Of a DNA stretch of 53,461 nucleotides, positions 7,140 through 16,104 are shown in pieces. Each line of letters begins with the position of its first letter. The first letter of the stretch is position 1. This DNA comes from Pseudomonadota bacterium (GTDB taxonomy: Bacteria; Pseudomonadota; Alphaproteobacteria; Acetobacterales; Acetobacteraceae). The translations under genes and the position numbers were made by a program. The notes beneath the pieces are model-generated. The model worked only from the letters and a program-made list of their open reading frames with translations. It ran no database searches and was not told the DNA's origin. Where the stretch lies: assembly GCA_021799015.1 (NCBI GenBank), contig JAJZBH010000001.1, positions 1 through 53,461 on the forward strand. Reading direction: 5' to 3'.

Positions 7140-9428
7140 ATGGACATGCCGATCTCACCTGCCAGTTTCGCCGTCGCCGAGCAGATCGCTCCAATCTCGC
7201 TGCAGATCTGGGACGCGAAATACAGACTGAAAGATGCCGGCGGCACGCCCATCGACATCTCGATCGAAGAAAGCTGGCGGCGCGTCGCCCGTGCACTCGC
7301 CGAGATCGAAGCAGAGCCCTCACGCTGGGAACCCCTGTTTTACACGGCCTTGGCCGATTTCAGATTCTTGCCAGCAGGGCGGATCCTGTCAGGAGCCGGG
7401 AGTGACCGCCGGGTAACGCTGTTCAACTGTTTCGTCATGGGTGATATCGAGGATGACCTCGGTCAAATTTTCTCGCACCTCCGGGAAGCGGCGCTGACGA
7501 TGCAGCAGGGCGGGGGCATCGGGTATGATTTTTCCTCGCTTCGCCCAAAAGGAGCCCCGGTGCGCGGCGTGGGCGCTGATGCATCCGGCCCCCTTTCTTT
7601 CATGGATGTCTGGGACTCGATGTGCCGGACCATAATGTCCGCTGGGGCACGGCGGGGGGCCATGATGGCAACCTTGCGCTGCGATCATCCCGATATCGAG
7701 GATTTCATAACCGCCAAGCGGGAACCCGGACGACTCAGGAACTTCAATCTTTCGGTTCTGGTAACGGACCCTTTCATGGCGGCAGTCGCCGCGGATGGTA
7801 ACTGGGATCTGACCTTCGGCGGCAGGATATACCGGACAGTCCGGGCGCGCGCCCTGTGGGACAAGCTTACCCGAGCAACGTACGATTATGCAGAGCCGGG
7901 CGTTATTTTCATTGACCGCATCAACTGCCGCAACAACCTCGCTTACTGCGAGACCATCCATGCGACGAATCCTTGCGGAGAACAGCCGCTTCCGGCCTAT
8001 GGCGCGTGCCTGCTGGGTTCCATCAACCTGGCACGTTTGGTCCACAACCCGTTTGAGCCCGATGCCCACATCGACGAACAAGAATTGGTTCAACTCGTCG
8101 GTATCGCAGTCCGGATGATGGACAACACGATCGAGGCTTCGGGCTTCCCTCTCGACGCTCAGCGACGTGAAGCGCATGCAAAGCGCCGGATCGGGCTTGG
8201 CATGACGGGCGTTGCGGACGCGCTGATGATGACCGGGCTGCGCTATGGAAGCGAGGAGGCGGCGGCGCAGGCGTCTGCCTGGGCCAGGCAAATAGAGCGA
8301 GCTGCCTACCTTGCCTCGACAAAGCTGGCTTCTGAAAAGGGAGCCTTTCCCTTATTCGATCGTGATCTGTATCTTGCCGGCGAAACGATCAAGGGCCTGG
8401 ATCCGGACGTCCGCGCCGAGGTCACGAAAAATGGGATTCGAAATGCACTCCTCACATCGATTGCCCCAACCGGAACGATATCCCTGTTTGCGGACAATGT
8501 GTCGAGCGGAATCGAGCCGGTTTTCGCGCTGGCGTACACGCGCAAGGTGCTGCAAGCTGACGGTACGCGACGCGAAGAAGAAGTGAGCGACTATGCACTC
8601 CGCCTTTTCCGCGAGCGCTTTGGTGCCGACGCCCCGCTTCCCGATTATTTTGTTACGGCGCAGGATCTGACGCCCGCCGAACACGTTCGAATGCAAGCCG
8701 CAGTGCAACGCCACGTGGACAGCGCGATTTCGAAGACAGTTAACGTACCAGAAAATATCAGTTTTGAAGCATTCCAGGACGTCTATCTGGACGCCTATCG
8801 TAGCGGCTGCAAAGGCTGCACAACATACCGGCCAAATGCCATCACGGGATCCGTTCTGGAGGTCAGGCCAACCGAGAACTCTGCTACACAACCTTCGGCG
8901 TCGACTACTCCACTGTCAGGCCATGGCGAATTATTGGCCCGAAACGAAAAGCTGACCGGCGCGACCTACAAGCTGCGGTGGCCCGGAAGCGAACACGCGA
9001 TCTATGTCACGCTCAATGATATTGAGCAGGACGGTATCCGGCGACCGTTCGAGATTTTCATTAATTCAAAGAATCTTGAACACTATGCCTGGGTGGTCGC
9101 GCTGACGCGGATGATCAGCGCGGTTTTCCGGCGGGGCGGTGAAGTCGCTTTTGTTGCCGAGGAACTCAAGCAGGTATTCGATCCGCTTGGCGGACATTGG
9201 ACCGAGGGGCGGTACGTCCCTTCCCTGGTCGCCGCAATCGGCGACGTAATCGAACGACATATGGCGGAACTGGGCCTGCTTACGCGTGCTGACGCGCTGG
9301 TCAGCAAAACCGTCTCATCACCCAGCGCACCACTCGGGAAGATTTGTCCTAAATGCAGCCAGCCCGGGGTAATCCAGGAGGAAGGCTGTCTTTCGTGCCT
9401 TAATTGCGGCTGGTCGAAGTGTGGCTAG
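7140..9428 (+). CDS. nrdJ: Class II (adenosylcobalamin-dependent) ribonucleotide reductase with C-terminal TSCPD domain and Cys-rich tail
   Basis: FLPAGRI, TLFNCFV, GGGIGYDFS, TNPCGEQ active site, IAPTGTIS, SAISKTVN, and C-terminal CPKC...CLNCGWSKCG. Confidence 0.93.
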   Translation: MDMPISPASFAVAEQIAPISLQIWDAKYRLKDAGGTPIDISIEESWRRVARALAEIEAEPSRWEPLFYTALADFRFLPAGRILSGAGSDRRVTLFNCFVMGDIEDDLGQIFSHLREAALTMQQGGGIGYDFSSLRPKGAPVRGVGADASGPLSFMDVWDSMCRTIMSAGARRGAMMATLRCDHPDIEDFITAKREPGRLRNFNLSVLVTDPFMAAVAADGNWDLTFGGRIYRTVRARALWDKLTRATYDYAEPGVIFIDRINCRNNLAYCETIHATNPCGEQPLPAYGACLLGSINLARLVHNPFEPDAHIDEQELVQLVGIAVRMMDNTIEASGFPLDAQRREAHAKRRIGLGMTGVADALMMTGLRYGSEEAAAQASAWARQIERAAYLASTKLASEKGAFPLFDRDLYLAGETIKGLDPDVRAEVTKNGIRNALLTSIAPTGTISLFADNVSSGIEPVFALAYTRKVLQADGTRREEEVSDYALRLFRERFGADAPLPDYFVTAQDLTPAEHVRMQAAVQRHVDSAISKTVNVPENISFEAFQDVYLDAYRSGCKGCTTYRPNAITGSVLEVRPTENSATQPSASTTPLSGHGELLARNEKLTGATYKLRWPGSEHAIYVTLNDIEQDGIRRPFEIFINSKNLEHYAWVVALTRMISAVFRRGGEVAFVAEELKQVFDPLGGHWTEGRYVPSLVAAIGDVIERHMAELGLLTRADALVSKTVSSPSAPLGKICPKCSQPGVIQEEGCLSCLNCGWSKCG

Positions 9429-11746: not shown

Positions 11747-12628
11747 TCAATCAAACAGTACTCTGCCGCCTATGGCGTCGAGACGGCTGAGCAAAGCCGG
11801 ATCCCGCTCCGATGGCACGGTGATAATTGCATGATCCAGGGCATGATCACATCCAACGTGGCAATGTTGATGTTCAGCGCCCAAACTGGGAACAACGGCG
11901 CGTACCAAAGCCCGAGCGCGATCGGCGTTCCCGAGCAGGACTTTCACCACGTGCTCTACAGTCACAGCTTCGTGCTCATCATGCCAGCAATCGTAATCGG
12001 TCACCATCGCCACGGTCGCGTAACAAATCTCCGCCTCGCGTGCGAGTTTCGCCTCGGGCATGTTAGTCATGCCAATAACGGAGCATCCCCAGCTTCGATA
12101 GAGCTCGCTTTCCGCGCGTGTAGAAAACTGGGGTCCCTCCATGGCAAGATAGGTACCTCCACGGGTGAAAGGCAAATCCAGAGCGCGAGATGACGTCTCG
12201 AGAGCATCGCCGAGACTGGCACAAACCGGATTAGCCATCGAGACGTGGGCCACGCAGCCTGCACCGAAGAAACTCTTCACGCGCGCAAAGGTTCGATCAA
12301 TAAATTGATCGACAATAACGAAATGACCAGGCGGCAACTCCGCCCGAAGGCTGCCGACCGCCGAAAGGGACAGGATGTCGGTTACCCCGACACGCTTCAG
12401 CGCATCGATATTGGCCCTGAAATTGAGATCGGATGGCGGCACCCGGTGACCCCGGCCATGGCGCGGCAGGAAGACAACCTGCACCCCTGCCAGAGTGCCA
12501 AACAACAATTCGTCAGAAGGCTCGCCCCACGGTGTAGCAACATGTTCCCAATGCTGGTCGGAAAGGCCCTCAATATCATAGAGCCCCGAACCGCCGATAA
12601 TACCAACTACTCTGGCTTTCTGACTCAT
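11747..12628 (-). CDS. mtnP: S-methyl-5'-thioadenosine phosphorylase
   Basis: GIIGGSGLY, PRHGRGH, EGPQFSTRAES, GMTNMPEAKLAREAE and TDYDCW motifs. Confidence 0.95.
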   Translation of the reverse strand: MSQKARVVGIIGGSGLYDIEGLSDQHWEHVATPWGEPSDELLFGTLAGVQVVFLPRHGRGHRVPPSDLNFRANIDALKRVGVTDILSLSAVGSLRAELPPGHFVIVDQFIDRTFARVKSFFGAGCVAHVSMANPVCASLGDALETSSRALDLPFTRGGTYLAMEGPQFSTRAESELYRSWGCSVIGMTNMPEAKLAREAEICYATVAMVTDYDCWHDEHEAVTVEHVVKVLLGNADRARALVRAVVPSLGAEHQHCHVGCDHALDHAIITVPSERDPALLSRLDAIGGRVLFD

Positions 12629-13350
12629 CGTCCCCGCCCCGGGCGCAACGCAATGAAGCCGACCAACCAGAAAACCACGAGATAGATCATTGCCGTTAGC
12701 CCGACCAATTTCCGTTCATTCAAAGTGGGGTCCGCAGACCATGCAAGGAATGCAGTGACATCGTGTGCCATTTCGCCAACATCAGGCTTGACGCCATCCG
12801 CAAACGTGACGGAACCTTTCCTCAAGGCTGGGGCCATCGCAATTTGACCACCAGGATATGCTACATTGTAGTAATAGCCAGGGATCATCGCGACATCGGG
12901 GGGCGCATCTCGGTAACCGGTTAGCAGCGAGTAGAGGGCTTCCGGTCCGCCGCGCCGGGCCGCAACAGTCAAGGAGAGATCCGGGGCAACCACCGCACTC
13001 GCTGCACTACCACGGGAGTCCAATGCGCGCATCCGGTCGTCAGGCGTCACGGCCATTTTCTTTTTGCCTACCACGCGCTTAATTTTGCTTGTTAGCGCTA
13101 CGATCTCGGAACGGGAAAGACCAATTCCTCGGAGATCACGATAACGAATCAAACGCAATCCATGGCATTCCGCGCAATCGGCTTGGTACACCACAAAACC
13201 TTTCTGCAGGGTGGTGGTATCGAAACCGCCAAACGGCGCCTCGAATGGCCATGACTGATGATCGGCGGCAGCACGTGCGACAGGCAGTGCCACAAACAAA
13301 AGAACGATAAAGGCAGCGACACGATTCATCTTAATGCTCCACGCGGCCAT
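12625..13350 (-). CDS. petC: Cytochrome c1
   Basis: Signal peptide, W-x-F-x-x-P-F-G, heme motif CAECH, PDLSL, distal Met in GGQIAMAP, DVTAFLAW and a C-terminal anchor helix. Confidence 0.88.
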   Translation of the reverse strand: MAAWSIKMNRVAAFIVLLFVALPVARAAADHQSWPFEAPFGGFDTTTLQKGFVVYQADCAECHGLRLIRYRDLRGIGLSRSEIVALTSKIKRVVGKKKMAVTPDDRMRALDSRGSAASAVVAPDLSLTVAARRGGPEALYSLLTGYRDAPPDVAMIPGYYYNVAYPGGQIAMAPALRKGSVTFADGVKPDVGEMAHDVTAFLAWSADPTLNERKLVGLTAMIYLVVFWLVGFIALRPGRGR

Positions 13351-14524
13351 CGCCTTTGGTGCGGTTGCCTTCCAGTAAAGTGACGACAGGCGTGATCACG
13401 ACGAGAAAGGCAAACCAGTACAACGTGGCTAAATCTGCGATGATGGGCGAAAAGCGGTAGGCAGGCTCTGCCGCGGCGACTGACAGAATAATAAAATCGA
13501 GCCCAAACAGCCACACGAAAGATCGGAATACCGGGCCCGTTTTGACCGACCGATCACGTGTACGGTCGAGCCAGGGCATTGCACCAAGCAATAACACACT
13601 CCCTATAACCAGGTAAGCGCCACCGCGAACGTTCTGCGCCGCGCCGGCCAAACCTTGAAAAGCCAGAAGATACCATGGCAACGTGACTTGCAGTGGTATG
13701 GCAAGCGGGTCTGGCGGGATTGCGTTTAGTCTTGTCGAGCCCAGCCCGGGCGCGAAAGTGACCAACGCCGCACAGGCAAAGGCTAACAGGATCACACCGC
13801 TGAACAGGTTTCGATTATAATGGGTTCTTTGGACAGCCCAATCGTCGCGTTTGCCATTGTCGCCACCCCGCGACACGTGACGGACTGTCATGGTAAACAC
13901 CGCGACAACAACGAGCAGAAACCCGATCGCTATATGAGCCATGGCGACTCGCGATAACGTTGTCACGCCCACTGAATAGCCGCCGCGCAACGCCATGGCC
14001 AAACCCGGGCCAATAATCGGAAGCACCGCAAGATGCTGCGCCACGCCCGACAGTGAACCGAGGCTCCCAGCACCGCCAACCATGGCAAAGCCAAAGTATG
14101 CTACCGCCACAAGGGCAACGAGACGAAGCACCACAAGAATCCAAGCGAAAGCCCGCAGGCCACGATGGGCACCGCGACTTATTCCGTAAAAAATCTGCAA
14201 ATACACCGCGCCGAACAGCACCGCGGTACTGGCGCCGTGCAGATCCCGGATTAGCCAGCCGAAATTGACGTCGCGCATGATGTATTGCAGGGAGTTGAAG
14301 GCCGACGGGATTCCGGGACGGTAGAAGAAGCCGAGCCATATGCCTGAAATTGTGAGGACAAGCACGGCTACCCAGATCAACGCTTCCATCACGCCGAAGA
14401 CGCCCGCGGAAAGCGGGGCTGAAGCGGGGGACCGCCACCTATTAACGAAGGGGCACACGGACTCCCGTTGGCCTGGCCCCTCCGGCGCGGCGTCCGACTC
14501 CTTGCTGGCGAATGCTTTCTTCAT
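13331..14524 (-). CDS. petB: Cytochrome b homologue, divergent (heme bH ligands and PEWY motif missing)
   Basis: AFNSLQYIMRDVNFGWLIRDLH is clearly cytochrome b; also LPIIG, GGYSV and MPWLD; located between petA-like and petC genes. Confidence 0.85.
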   Translation of the reverse strand: MKKAFASKESDAAPEGPGQRESVCPFVNRWRSPASAPLSAGVFGVMEALIWVAVLVLTISGIWLGFFYRPGIPSAFNSLQYIMRDVNFGWLIRDLHGASTAVLFGAVYLQIFYGISRGAHRGLRAFAWILVVLRLVALVAVAYFGFAMVGGAGSLGSLSGVAQHLAVLPIIGPGLAMALRGGYSVGVTTLSRVAMAHIAIGFLLVVVAVFTMTVRHVSRGGDNGKRDDWAVQRTHYNRNLFSGVILLAFACAALVTFAPGLGSTRLNAIPPDPLAIPLQVTLPWYLLAFQGLAGAAQNVRGGAYLVIGSVLLLGAMPWLDRTRDRSVKTGPVFRSFVWLFGLDFIILSVAAAEPAYRFSPIIADLATLYWFAFLVVITPVVTLLEGNRTKGDGRVEH

Positions 14525-14528
14525 GACT

Positions 14529-15062
14529 TTAGCCCAATATGATTGTGTTCCGATCCGCGAACCGGTACGGCGGGATCTTCAGATTGCGTGCTGCAGCAGC
14601 GTTTAATGCTCGCCCCGCTGCATCGTATCTTGCGCCATTGCAGGGGTCATCGAAGCCATCCGGCGTCGCGACAACTTCGCAGCCGCTGGCGGGATCAACG
14701 GCAACCACAACGATGACGTTCGGCAGGCCCGGCGTAATGCGTGTTGCCAGCGAAACGGGCTGTCGCAAGCTTCGTGTGGGGATAGCCCGGAGCTGGTTCA
14801 TCTGTTGCTTTGTGAGATGGCGAATGATCACCGGGTTATCTCTCCAGATCACCACGTCGGTCTCGCCCGACTTCAGGCTGCCTAGCTCAACGGCGATGTG
14901 CGTCTCCGCCCTCGCGTTTTGATCAGGTCCGAGAGCCGCCCCAAAAATATACGCAAGCGCTCCGGCGGCTACCGCGGCCATGGCAACCATGAGGATCGTC
15001 GAAAATTTCATGGTTGCAGCCTCGCCCCCGTGGTCATGCGTGATTTCGGCCTCATCCATCAC
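14529..15062 (-). CDS. petA: Rieske-fold protein lacking [2Fe-2S] ligands (petA homologue)
   Basis: N-terminal TM helix, WRDNPVIIRH (cf. WRGKPVFIRH), GC...PC.G.RYDAAGR and NLKIPPYRF; first gene of the pet operon. Confidence 0.82.
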   Translation of the reverse strand: MMDEAEITHDHGGEAATMKFSTILMVAMAAVAAGALAYIFGAALGPDQNARAETHIAVELGSLKSGETDVVIWRDNPVIIRHLTKQQMNQLRAIPTRSLRQPVSLATRITPGLPNVIVVVAVDPASGCEVVATPDGFDDPCNGARYDAAGRALNAAAARNLKIPPYRFADRNTIILG

Positions 15063-15219: not shown

Positions 15220-16104
15220 ATGAACCGCCCCGTGACACCAGCCCGCCCCGAGCATGAGGCACTCAAAGCTGAGGTAAAAGCCTGGTTCGAGCAGCTGCGC
15301 GATTGTATCGGCGCCGCCTTCGAAGCAATCGAGCGCGATTATGACGGTCCATTGCGCCACAGGACGCCGGGCCGCTTCGCGTATTCCCATTGGGCGCGGG
15401 AATCCGGAGGAGGAGGCGTTACCGCCGTGATGCGTGGCCGCGTGTTCGAGAAAGTGGGCATCAATGTCTCAACGGTCTGGGGAACGTTCGACCCTGAATT
15501 TGGCAAGACAATCCGCGGGGCCGAGCAGGACCCGCGCTTTTGGGCCACGGGGATCAGCTTGGTGGCGCATATGCATAGCCCTCGCGTTCCCGCCGCACAT
15601 ATGAATACCCGGATGCTCGTAACGACCAAGGGCTGGTTTGGAGGGGGCGGCGACTTGACCCCTTTGCAACCAGGAACGGAAGCAGCTTGCGAAGACGCTG
15701 CAGCCTTCCACACCGCATTTCGCCATGCCTGCGATGCGCATCATCTAAATTATTACGAGAAGTACAGACAATGGTGTGACGACTACTTTTTTCTTCCGCA
15801 CCGCAACGAAATGCGGGGGGCCGGCGGGATCTTTTTTGATTATCTGGACTCCGGAGACCTGGCGGATGATTTTGCCTTCACCCGCGATGTCGGTCTCGCA
15901 TTTCTCGAATCCTATCCCGCAATTGTACGGCGGCGTATGAATGAGCGCTGGACCGAAGCGGAGCGCGAGGCTCAGCTGATCCGCCGAGGACGCTACGTTG
16001 AGTTCAATCTCCTTTATGATCGCGGCACAATATTTGGCCTGAAAACCGGAGGCAACGTTGAGGCGATTTTGATGAGCCTGCCACCCGAGGTTAAGTGGCC
16101 ATAG
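15220..16104 (+). CDS. hemF: Oxygen-dependent coproporphyrinogen III oxidase
   Basis: [44 protein letters not shown] and ILMSLPP motifs. Confidence 0.96.

What the first reader, a model, noticed from the sequence alone, without database searches (positions are those of the whole stretch)
14631..14696. Rieske protein with all four [2Fe-2S] ligands replaced but the disulfide kept
Seen: box 1 CTHLGC reads DPASGC and box 2 CPCHGS reads DPCNGA. The ligands change Cys to Asp, His to Ala, Cys to Asp and His to Asn. The two cysteines that form the stabilising disulfide remain, as does YDxxGR. The GPAP loop reads AAAA. Inference: the fold is maintained without a cluster, and the symmetrical Cys-to-Asp changes could create an oxygen-ligand site for another metal ion.
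Basis: partly seen in the sequence, partly recalled or inferred. Interest (0 to 1): 0.8.

Follow-up and report, generated by a model that had tools for sequence, protein, structure and literature searches.

The report
Cluster-less Rieske of a dismantled bc1
In this mine-drainage bacterium the Rieske subunit of the cytochrome bc1 respiratory complex has lost all four residues that hold its iron-sulfur cluster yet is still conserved, so it likely survives as a structural part of a complex that likely no longer runs its normal electron cycle, a decay already reported in a sister genus.

Summary
Window 14529-15062 (-) is petA of the only petABC operon found in this Acidiphilium-genus genome. C123D, H125A, C139D and H142N are real (independent contigs, two sister genomes); the disulfide pair C128/C141 stays and GPAP reads AAAA. 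The protein has also lost its twin-arginine motif. The adjacent cytochrome b lacks both bH histidines and the Qo motif (PEWY to LPWY) but keeps both bL histidines; c1 is intact. petA is under purifying selection (dN/dS 0.10-0.17) and is predicted to keep the Rieske fold. Across 18 genus genomes PetA is intact in 4, ligand-less in 4, cut to its membrane helix in 9 and not found in 1. Ligand-less ISP with a kept disulfide is already published for Acidocella (PMC10715153). This copy is a separately derived variant. Best reading: a cofactor-free structural subunit of a bc1 remnant that cannot run the Q cycle (0.6). The proposed Asp/Asp metal site is geometrically plausible but the pair occurs only in this small clade (0.1).

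The parts
14529..15062 (-). petA, ligand-less Rieske subunit, 177 aa (GTG start)
   Evidence: (TIGR01416 82.5 bits, below the 97.4 cut-off)
14679..14696 (-). box 1 D123-P-A125-S-G-C128: first Cys ligand to Asp, first His ligand to Ala, disulfide Cys kept
14631..14648 (-). box 2 D139-P-C141-N142-G-A144: second Cys ligand to Asp, second His ligand to Asn, disulfide Cys kept, Ser to Ala
14610..14627 (-). Y146-D-A-A-G-R151, conserved YDxxGR
14589..14600 (-). A155-A158 in place of the GPAP proline loop; G and P are invariant in 22 of 22 canonical and 30 of 30 Acidocella PetA
15003..15014 (-). T17-M-K-F20 in place of the twin-arginine motif R-R-D-F
14931..15005 (-). predicted membrane anchor helix, residues 20-44; the only part of PetA left in 9 relatives
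13331..14524 (-). petB, cytochrome b: bL ligands H96 and H197 kept; bH ligands changed to Q110 and T211; Qo motif PEWY changed to L282-P-W-Y; Qo Gly to Ser; Qo Tyr to Gln
12625..13350 (-). petC, cytochrome c1 with C59-A-E-C62-H63 and distal M172 kept
15220..16104 (+). hemF (coproporphyrinogen oxidase), divergent flanking gene, syntenic in relatives; not part of the complex
11747..12628 (-). phosphorylase-family gene (mtnP is my recalled label), downstream flanking gene, syntenic in relatives; not part of the complex

Best explanation
This is the PetA subunit of the genome's only detected bc1 operon; it has lost all four cluster ligands and its twin-arginine motif, is predicted to keep the Rieske fold, and likely serves as a cofactor-free structural subunit of a bc1 remnant that likely cannot run the Q cycle. 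Shown from sequence: loss of the ligands, Tat motif and proline loop; loss of bH and Qo residues in cytochrome b; retention of the bL and c1 heme ligands; purifying selection. Inferred: the apo-protein is inserted without Tat; the C128-C141 disulfide forms in the periplasm and staples the empty loops; the Asp residues take over backbone hydrogen bonds once accepted by the cysteine sulfurs; the membrane helix packs against cytochrome b. The remnant would be kept as a scaffold for complex I and the aa3 oxidase, as PMC10715153 proposes. Quinol would be oxidised by bd oxidases and cytochrome c fed by other donors.
For: One petA/petB/petC set in G000. Tat motif in 0 of 3 G000-clade and 0 of 1 G002 PetA, against 22 of 22 canonical, 4 of 4 ligand-intact Acidiphilium and 30 of 30 Acidocella; Rieske PetA is a Tat substrate (PMC3305326 passages). 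Cytochrome b in 47 of 47 (17 Acidiphilium, 30 Acidocella): never both bH His, Glu of PEWY to Pro, Qo Gly to Ser/Ala/Leu, Qo Tyr lost; both bL His in 46 of 47. In yeast bL is inserted first and is a prerequisite for bH (PMC4033779 passages), so bL is the heme a purely structural cytochrome b would keep (inference). petA dN/dS 0.10 and 0.17, within the 0.06-0.23 of neighbouring genes. The head is deleted in 9 of 18 genus genomes, at least twice, including G014/G016 in the sister clade. The remaining helix shows 0/6, 1/7 and 1/3 replacement/silent changes in three sister pairs. Bypass parts are present: bd oxidase in 17 of 17 relatives, two each in G003 and G007; in G000 an aa3 oxidase over the NCBIfam cut-offs, complex I 49-kDa family matches, and two cytochrome-porin-like genes.
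Against: No experiment here shows expression, assembly or absence of activity. c1 keeps CxxCH in 44 of 44 sequences and its distal Met in 38 of 43 that reach it, more than a scaffold obviously needs. In Acidocella the ligand-less subdomain is as conserved as in true Rieske proteins (identity 0.758 against 0.750) while cytochrome b has relaxed (0.527 against 0.773), which points to a specific role for the head. G008 (99% complete) has no petB or petC match, so any scaffold is dispensable there. In G000 itself no bd or second heme-copper oxidase was found; I read that as an assembly gap (94% complete, 204 contigs). My test that D-P-x-[STN]-G is a generic turn motif was inconclusive (ratio 1.35). 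Two of the wider mini-PetA pairs gave pN/pS near 0.5. The scaffold idea rests on a Paracoccus paper whose title alone I saw.
Confidence: 0.6

Rival explanations
1. Remodelled redox enzyme: the complex still moves electrons, but linearly between heme bL and heme c1 (from quinol, or as a membrane-anchored cytochrome c relay to the aa3 oxidase), with the cluster-less head as a spacer or docking surface.
For: Both bL His in 46 of 47 and CxxCH in 44 of 44. The same PEWY-to-xPWY change in 47 of 47 looks like a fixed new state rather than random decay. Five genomes that lost the c1 Met loop have His there, a possible ligand switch. All 9 head-deleted genomes carry reaction-centre genes and so need a route from quinol back to cytochrome c.
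Against: bL and c1 are too far apart in known bc1 structures for direct transfer (recalled, not measured here). The Qo Gly, Glu and Tyr are lost in 47 of 47. PMC10715153 section 17 considers and rejects this route. G000, G003 and G007 have no reaction-centre match.
Confidence: 0.15
2. One reading: D123 and D139, perhaps with S126, N142 or water, bind a single metal ion in the emptied pocket, loaded in the periplasm.
For: The same two positions bind Zn (two Cys plus two chloride) in cluster-free TtPetA, whose pocket is pre-formed (PMC10492824 abstract). Both Asp are present in 3 of 3 genomes and 13 of 13 cluster members. The subdomain is strongly constrained. The habitat is mine drainage and tailings.
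Against: The pair is not shared by other ligand-less lineages: Ala/Asp in G002, Asn with Cys/Ser/Ala in 30 of 30 Acidocella, and Asp at position 123 in only 1 of 150 representatives, which is this cluster. The proline loop that covers the pocket is lost. Two carboxylates in an acidic periplasm would be largely protonated (general knowledge). Close relatives delete the head altogether. The clade is too shallow to show selection on these two residues in particular.
Confidence: 0.1
3. Proton plug: the head is kept specifically to seal the Qo-side proton path that opens when the cluster is missing, which would matter in an acidophile with a large pH gradient.
For: A review states that eliminating the cluster opened an otherwise closed proton channel in mutant bc1 (PMC3119413 passage citing Gurung 2005; original not read). 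The quinol-facing His becomes Asp or Asn in G000, G002, Acidocella, L162 and the L143 group.
Against: Nine genomes have no head at all. The Glu of PEWY is already gone in ligand-intact relatives, so the path may have been closed earlier.
Confidence: 0.1
4. Neutral decay: a dying gene on the way to deletion, or an assembly error.
For: Fast evolution of the operon (long branches); graded loss down to absence in G008; petB dN/dS up to 0.38.
Against: Intact frames in 3 of 3 genomes; petA dN/dS 0.10-0.17 with 0/9 and 2/12 in the subdomain; contigs of other studies agree.
Confidence: 0.04
5. It still binds a [2Fe-2S] cluster through alternative ligands.
For: The fold is kept; Tyr146 is kept.
Against: No free Cys or His remains in the head subdomain: the only two Cys are the disulfide pair. 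No Tat motif to export a loaded protein.
Confidence: 0.01

Closest known systems
Deranged ISP of Acidocella (Degli Esposti et al. 2023, PMC10715153)
   Same: PetA that lacks three or four cluster ligands but keeps the disulfide pair, in a petABC operon whose cytochrome b has lost bH ligands (paper passages; confirmed on 30 Acidocella genomes). Same hemF-petABC context.
   Different: Different residues (D-P-A-S-G-C / D-P-C-N-G-A against N-T-G-x-x-C / C-P-C-D-G-S); Tat motif and Gly-Pro loop lost here but kept in 30 of 30 Acidocella; 8-residue loop deletion. Separate origin is inferred because ligand-intact Acidiphilium branch between them. The paper says Acidiphilium lacks the ISP gene.
Proteobacterial bc1 Rieske subunit PetA (TIGR01416; bovine 1RIE, R. 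sphaeroides 2NVG)
   Same: Operon position, membrane helix plus head, predicted fold (Z 20.8, rmsd 1.2 A), disulfide, YDxxGR; 25-33% identity.
   Different: 0 of 4 cluster ligands, no Tat motif, no proline loop, 82.5 bits against a cut-off of 97.4, no Pfam Rieske match.
Zn-bound immature TtPetA (PDB 7YR9; PMC10492824)
   Same: Cluster-free Rieske head with a pre-formed pocket; the model superposes at Z 17.6, rmsd 1.5 A.
   Different: TtPetA keeps all native ligands and binds Zn through the two Cys as a putative maturation state; here those residues are Asp and the state is genetically fixed.
Cofactor-less COX1-like protein of Acetobacter (as described in PMC10715153)
   Same: A respiratory subunit that lost its metal ligands yet is kept, with a proposed structural role.
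   Different: Different complex and fold; known to me only from that passage.

Membership tests
bc1 Rieske subunit PetA (orthology) | First gene of a petABC operon with cytochrome b and c1 | tested here: met
   synteny in relatives
bc1 Rieske subunit PetA (orthology) | N-terminal membrane helix plus Rieske beta-sandwich head | tested here: met
   predicted model only; built from a 60-sequence Rieske alignment
Functional Rieske [2Fe-2S] protein | Two Cys and two His cluster ligands | tested here: not met
   0 of 4
Functional Rieske [2Fe-2S] protein | Disulfide cysteine pair of high-potential Rieske proteins | tested here: met
   C128 and C141 invariant in 60 of 60 aligned sequences; bond formation not tested
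Functional Rieske [2Fe-2S] protein | Twin-arginine export motif | tested here: not met
Functional Rieske [2Fe-2S] protein | TIGR01416 curated cut-off | tested here: not met
   82.5 against 97.4 bits
Functional Rieske [2Fe-2S] protein | Bound cluster (EPR, labile sulfide) | not testable with these tools
   needs protein
Q-cycle-competent cytochrome bc1 | Four His ligands for hemes bL and bH | tested here: not met
   bL 2 of 2, bH 0 of 2
Q-cycle-competent cytochrome bc1 | Qo residues (PEWY Glu, cd1 Gly, ef-helix Tyr) | tested here: not met
   LPWY, Ser, Gln; (the roles of these residues are recalled, Tyr also in PMC7908018 passage)
Q-cycle-competent cytochrome bc1 | c1 with CxxCH and distal Met | tested here: met
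Deranged bc1 of acidophilic Acetobacteraceae (PMC10715153) | ISP lacking 3-4 ligands with the disulfide pair kept | tested here: met
Deranged bc1 of acidophilic Acetobacteraceae (PMC10715153) | Cytochrome b lacking bH ligands, c1 intact | tested here: met
Deranged bc1 of acidophilic Acetobacteraceae (PMC10715153) | Host in Acidiphilium, Acidocella or Acidisoma | tested here: met
   a same-genus contig at 96% is titled Acidiphilium sp.; same-genus PetA named Acidiphilium
Deranged bc1 of acidophilic Acetobacteraceae (PMC10715153) | Stabilises complex I (proposed in the paper, not shown there) | not testable with these tools
   needs a knockout and native gels
Mononuclear carboxylate metal site | Conserved set of oxygen ligands across homologues | tested here: not met
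   Asp pair only in the G000 clade
Mononuclear carboxylate metal site | Ligand geometry and bound metal | not testable with these tools
   the tools returned no side-chain geometry for the model; no binding assay

The most novel reading that the evidence does not exclude
The 'deranged' bc1 of acidophilic Acetobacteraceae is not a relic but a re-engineered enzyme. The emptied Rieske pocket holds a single periplasm-loaded metal ion (here through D123 and D139, the positions that bind Zn in immature TtPetA) and relays electrons between heme bL and heme c1 without a Q cycle. It would be a Rieske fold that swapped its iron-sulfur cluster for a carboxylate-bound metal in acid, iron-rich water.
Probability: 0.08. 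Interest if true: 0.85.

Novelty: new variant of a known kind. Interest (0 to 1): 0.38.

Why it matters
The phenomenon itself is in print, but what these dismantled bc1 complexes do is untested. The genus gives a natural dissection series (intact head, ligand-less head, membrane helix only, not found) that shows the order of loss and what selection keeps: the bL and c1 hemes and the PetA helix. That makes two questions testable in culturable acidophiles: whether complex III has a redox-independent scaffolding role in bacteria, and how phototrophic Acidiphilium return electrons to the reaction centre without a Rieske cluster. A folded, naturally cluster-free Rieske head is also a useful model for apo-Rieske stability and for Tat-independent export.

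Tried and rejected
Sequencing error and pseudogene were rejected. A spare paralogue beside a normal bc1 was rejected: one petABC in G000; the only other TIGR01416 match (C59) is an arsenite-oxidase-like small subunit beside a molybdopterin gene. Pfam gave no match for PetA at E 0.1. The word-based homologue search found only the protein's own cluster. The single-protein metagenome scan found nothing; the alignment scan gave 233 relatives of which 80 were returned. The Asx-turn motif count was inconclusive: 25 observed against 18.5 expected on a noisy ORF set. No RNA holder was listed, which says nothing on expression. Not found in G000 (94% complete): bd, reaction centre, RuBisCO; the AOX search had no ringing control and is uninformative. 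The NrfD match is a thiosulfate/polysulfide-reductase-like operon, with no sign of alternative complex III in the 3.9 kb read. The promoter scan upstream of petA found none. Earlier scan findings: none. Complex prediction was not run: PetA with cytochrome b is a textbook pair and a pass would reflect solved structures. Paper searches listed no report of the D-P-A-S-G-C form or of Tat loss; the library lacks most subscription journals, and the Fig. S8C alignment of PMC10715153 is a picture I could not see. PMC8790237 passages added nothing on Acidiphilium bc1.

Full report
Observation. Window 14631-14696 (-) reads DPASGCEVVATPDGFDDPCNGA within a 177-aa ORF at 14529-15062. It aligns to solved bc1 Rieske proteins (48 matches, best E 3.7e-18) with C123D, H125A, C139D and H142N at the four ligand positions, C128 and C141 at the disulfide positions, YDxxGR kept and GPAP read as AAAA. 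It scores 82.5 bits on TIGR01416 (cut-off 97.4) and has no Pfam match. The changes are real. Two sister genomes (96% and 92%) and 13 of 13 members of the 90% cluster share both boxes. Of four runs laid, X6 and X7 (two studies) span both boxes, X4 spans box 2 and X9 misses them; differences inside the boxes are synonymous.

Context. The gene heads petA-petB-petC, the only such set found in G000. The host genus is Acidiphilium by record titles and protein names of same-genus genomes; the laid holders X6 and X7 are mine tailings and mine drainage metagenomes. Cytochrome b keeps the bL ligands H96 and H197, has Q110 and T211 at the bH ligands, LPWY for PEWY, and has lost the Qo Gly and Tyr; it keeps the Qi His but not the Qi Asp. 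Cytochrome c1 keeps CxxCH and M172. So the Rieske change is one part of a dismantled complex.

Further losses in PetA. The twin-arginine motif is absent in 3 of 3 G000-clade proteins and in G002. It is present in 22 of 22 canonical, 4 of 4 ligand-intact Acidiphilium and 30 of 30 Acidocella PetA; a TatC-like motif is present in G000. Bacterial Rieske subunits are Tat substrates (PMC3305326, passages). That Tat serves to export proteins loaded with cofactor in the cytoplasm is established knowledge, so its loss fits a protein with no such cofactor. The Gly-Pro of the proline loop, invariant in 22 of 22 canonical and 30 of 30 Acidocella sequences, is also gone.

Selection and fold. Pairwise NG86 (my script) gives petA dN/dS 0.10 (6 replacement, 19 silent) and 0.17 (15, 27); residues 113-177 give 0 against 9 and 2 against 12. 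petB gives 0.38 and 0.23, petC 0.10 (68 codons) and 0.22, neighbouring genes 0.06-0.23. AlphaFold2 on a 60-sequence alignment (26 ligand-intact, 34 ligand-less) gives pLDDT 88.7; the model matches 1RIE at Z 20.8, rmsd 1.2 A over 124 residues. The alignment biases the model towards that fold, and the tools gave no side-chain geometry.

A graded series in the genus. petB and petC match in 17 of 18 genomes; G008 has neither. PetA keeps all ligands in 4 (G004, G011, G012, G017: C-P-H-R-G-C / C-P-C-H-G-A), is ligand-less in 4 (G000, G003, G007; G002 with A-P-Q-H-F-C / D-P-C-D-G) and is cut to the membrane helix plus about 20 residues in 9, at the same place upstream of petB. Trees of the flanking genes alone and with petBC put the G000 clade sister to G002+(G014, G016) (support 90 and 100) and place head deletion at least twice; the position of G011/G017 differs between the two trees. 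A cytochrome b tree (38 sequences, 10 of the 30 Acidocella included, fast mode) puts ligand-intact G004/G012 at the base of Acidiphilium, Acidocella as sister, and the L143 group outside both. Ligand loss in the G000 clade is therefore inferred to be separate from that in Acidocella; regain by transfer in the intact forms was not tested. bH and Qo loss came first, since all four intact-PetA genomes already lack both bH His and the PEWY Glu.

Test of the Asp/Asp metal idea. For it: the two positions are the Cys pair that binds Zn in cluster-free TtPetA, whose pocket is pre-formed (PMC10492824, abstract only). Against it: other ligand-less forms do not share the pair. In Acidocella (the 30 best-scoring of 60 matching genomes among 63) position 123 is Asn in 30 of 30, 139 is Cys 26, Ser 3, Ala 1, and 142 is Asp in 30 of 30. 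Of 80 metagenome loci, 43 were Acidocella-like, 4 a further ligand-less type, 1 had both His as Asp, 31 were canonical and 1 was not parsed. Of 150 top representatives, 123 were canonical and 4 truncated or unaligned; Asp at 123 occurred only in this cluster and Asp at 139 in three. Only D139 is shared with the deep sister G002. Asp or Asn at the first position of such turns can accept the backbone hydrogen bonds that the Cys sulfur accepted (recalled); my count test of this was inconclusive.

What is known. [quoted passage not shown] Its ISP tree lists one Acidiphilium protein, WP_235704662, identical to the PetA of G017. The S8C alignment is a picture I could not read, so I cannot exclude that this form appears there. 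Six paper searches listed nothing on this form or on Tat loss. Three points differ from the paper: ligand-less and helix-only PetA exist in Acidiphilium; bH loss occurs with intact ISP ligands in 4 genomes; and c1 lacks its Met loop in 5 of 16 Acidiphilium.

Mechanism. With no cluster, no bH and no Qo residues, bifurcated quinol oxidation cannot occur (established chemistry; ligand scheme in PMC7908018 passages). What selection keeps is the bL pair (46 of 47), CxxCH (44 of 44) and the PetA helix (0/6, 1/7 and 1/3 replacement/silent in close pairs; pN/pS 0.34-0.55 in three wider pairs). In yeast bL is inserted first (PMC4033779, outline and passages), so this is close to the minimum for a folded assembly. 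Alternative routes exist: bd oxidase in 17 of 17 relatives but not found in G000; one aa3 oxidase; complex I family matches; two N-terminal-heme, porin-like proteins with matches in 16 of 18 genomes (the name Cyc2 is my recall, no family model hit); arsenite-oxidase-like and thiosulfate-dehydrogenase-like genes below cut-off. I commit to a cofactor-free structural subunit (0.6). The rivals are a remodelled bL-c1 redox module (0.15), a metal site (0.1), a proton plug (0.1; PMC3119413 passage), decay (0.04) and a retained cluster (0.01). The strongest result against a mere scaffold is in Acidocella, where the empty subdomain is as conserved as in true Rieske proteins (0.758 against 0.750) while cytochrome b relaxed (0.527 against 0.773; hemF control 0.769 against 0.726) and Tat is kept.

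Verdict. Real, and correctly seen. It is a new, separately derived variant of a published kind whose function is untested. Interest 0.38.

Noticed in passing
L064, L065, L067, L068, L069, L070, L071, L073, L074 (upstream of petB): Nine Acidiphilium genomes keep a mini-PetA (membrane helix plus about 20 residues) where the paper says the gene is lacking; close pairs show purifying selection.
   Followed up: partly
G001, G005, G006, G009, G010, G013, G014, G015, G016, G002: All 9 head-deleted genomes and ligand-less G002 carry photosynthetic reaction-centre genes: phototrophs with no Rieske cluster for cyclic electron flow.
   Followed up: no
L091-L120 (Acidocella PetA): The ligand-less head keeps Tat (30 of 30), invariant Asn, Thr, Asp, Ser and Tyr around the pocket, and canonical-level conservation. 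It is a better candidate for a replacement cofactor than the window's protein.
   Followed up: partly
L062, L063, L072, L075: Four Acidiphilium keep all Rieske ligands (C-P-H-R-G-C, with Ser to Ala and Tyr to Phe) although bH and Qo residues are lost; G004, G011 and G017 have no top-scoring aa3-type COX1 match.
   Followed up: partly
petC of G002, G014, G016, G015, G009: The loop with the distal Met of c1 is deleted and a His lies there instead, in two separate clades; a possible His/His ligand switch.
   Followed up: no
P0054, P0057, P0058, P0070, P0078, P0090, P0112, P0115, P0139: Nine of 150 representatives are PetA-like proteins with the second His ligand changed to Cys (C-x-C-C) and often the first His changed too; one cluster member is labelled Hyphomicrobiales. 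Possibly three- or four-Cys clusters.
   Followed up: no
P0055; P0015; P0024; L162; L143, L182, L208, L213: Further ligand-altered PetA types: P0055 (Gly/Asp at the Cys positions), P0024 (disulfide lost too), L162 (both His to Asp, both Cys kept) and the L143 group, whose cytochrome b has QWY for EWY.
   Followed up: partly
G000 whole genome: No quinol oxidase was found (no bd, one heme-copper oxidase of aa3 type), although sisters G003 and G007 have two bd each; probably an assembly gap.
   Followed up: partly
L122:5618-7099, L123:5811-7670, L124:495-3115, L125:4183-6371, L133:3-2481: Two N-terminal-heme porin-like proteins (Cyc2-like by recall; one followed by a small cytochrome c), an arsenite-oxidase-like pair, a diheme/thiosulfate-dehydrogenase-like cluster and a thiosulfate/polysulfide-reductase-like operon.
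   Followed up: partly
L091 petB: One Acidocella cytochrome b has lost the second bL His as well.
   Followed up: no
window 7140-9428: A 762-aa ORF that looks like a class II (B12) ribonucleotide reductase by recalled motifs; not searched.
   Followed up: no
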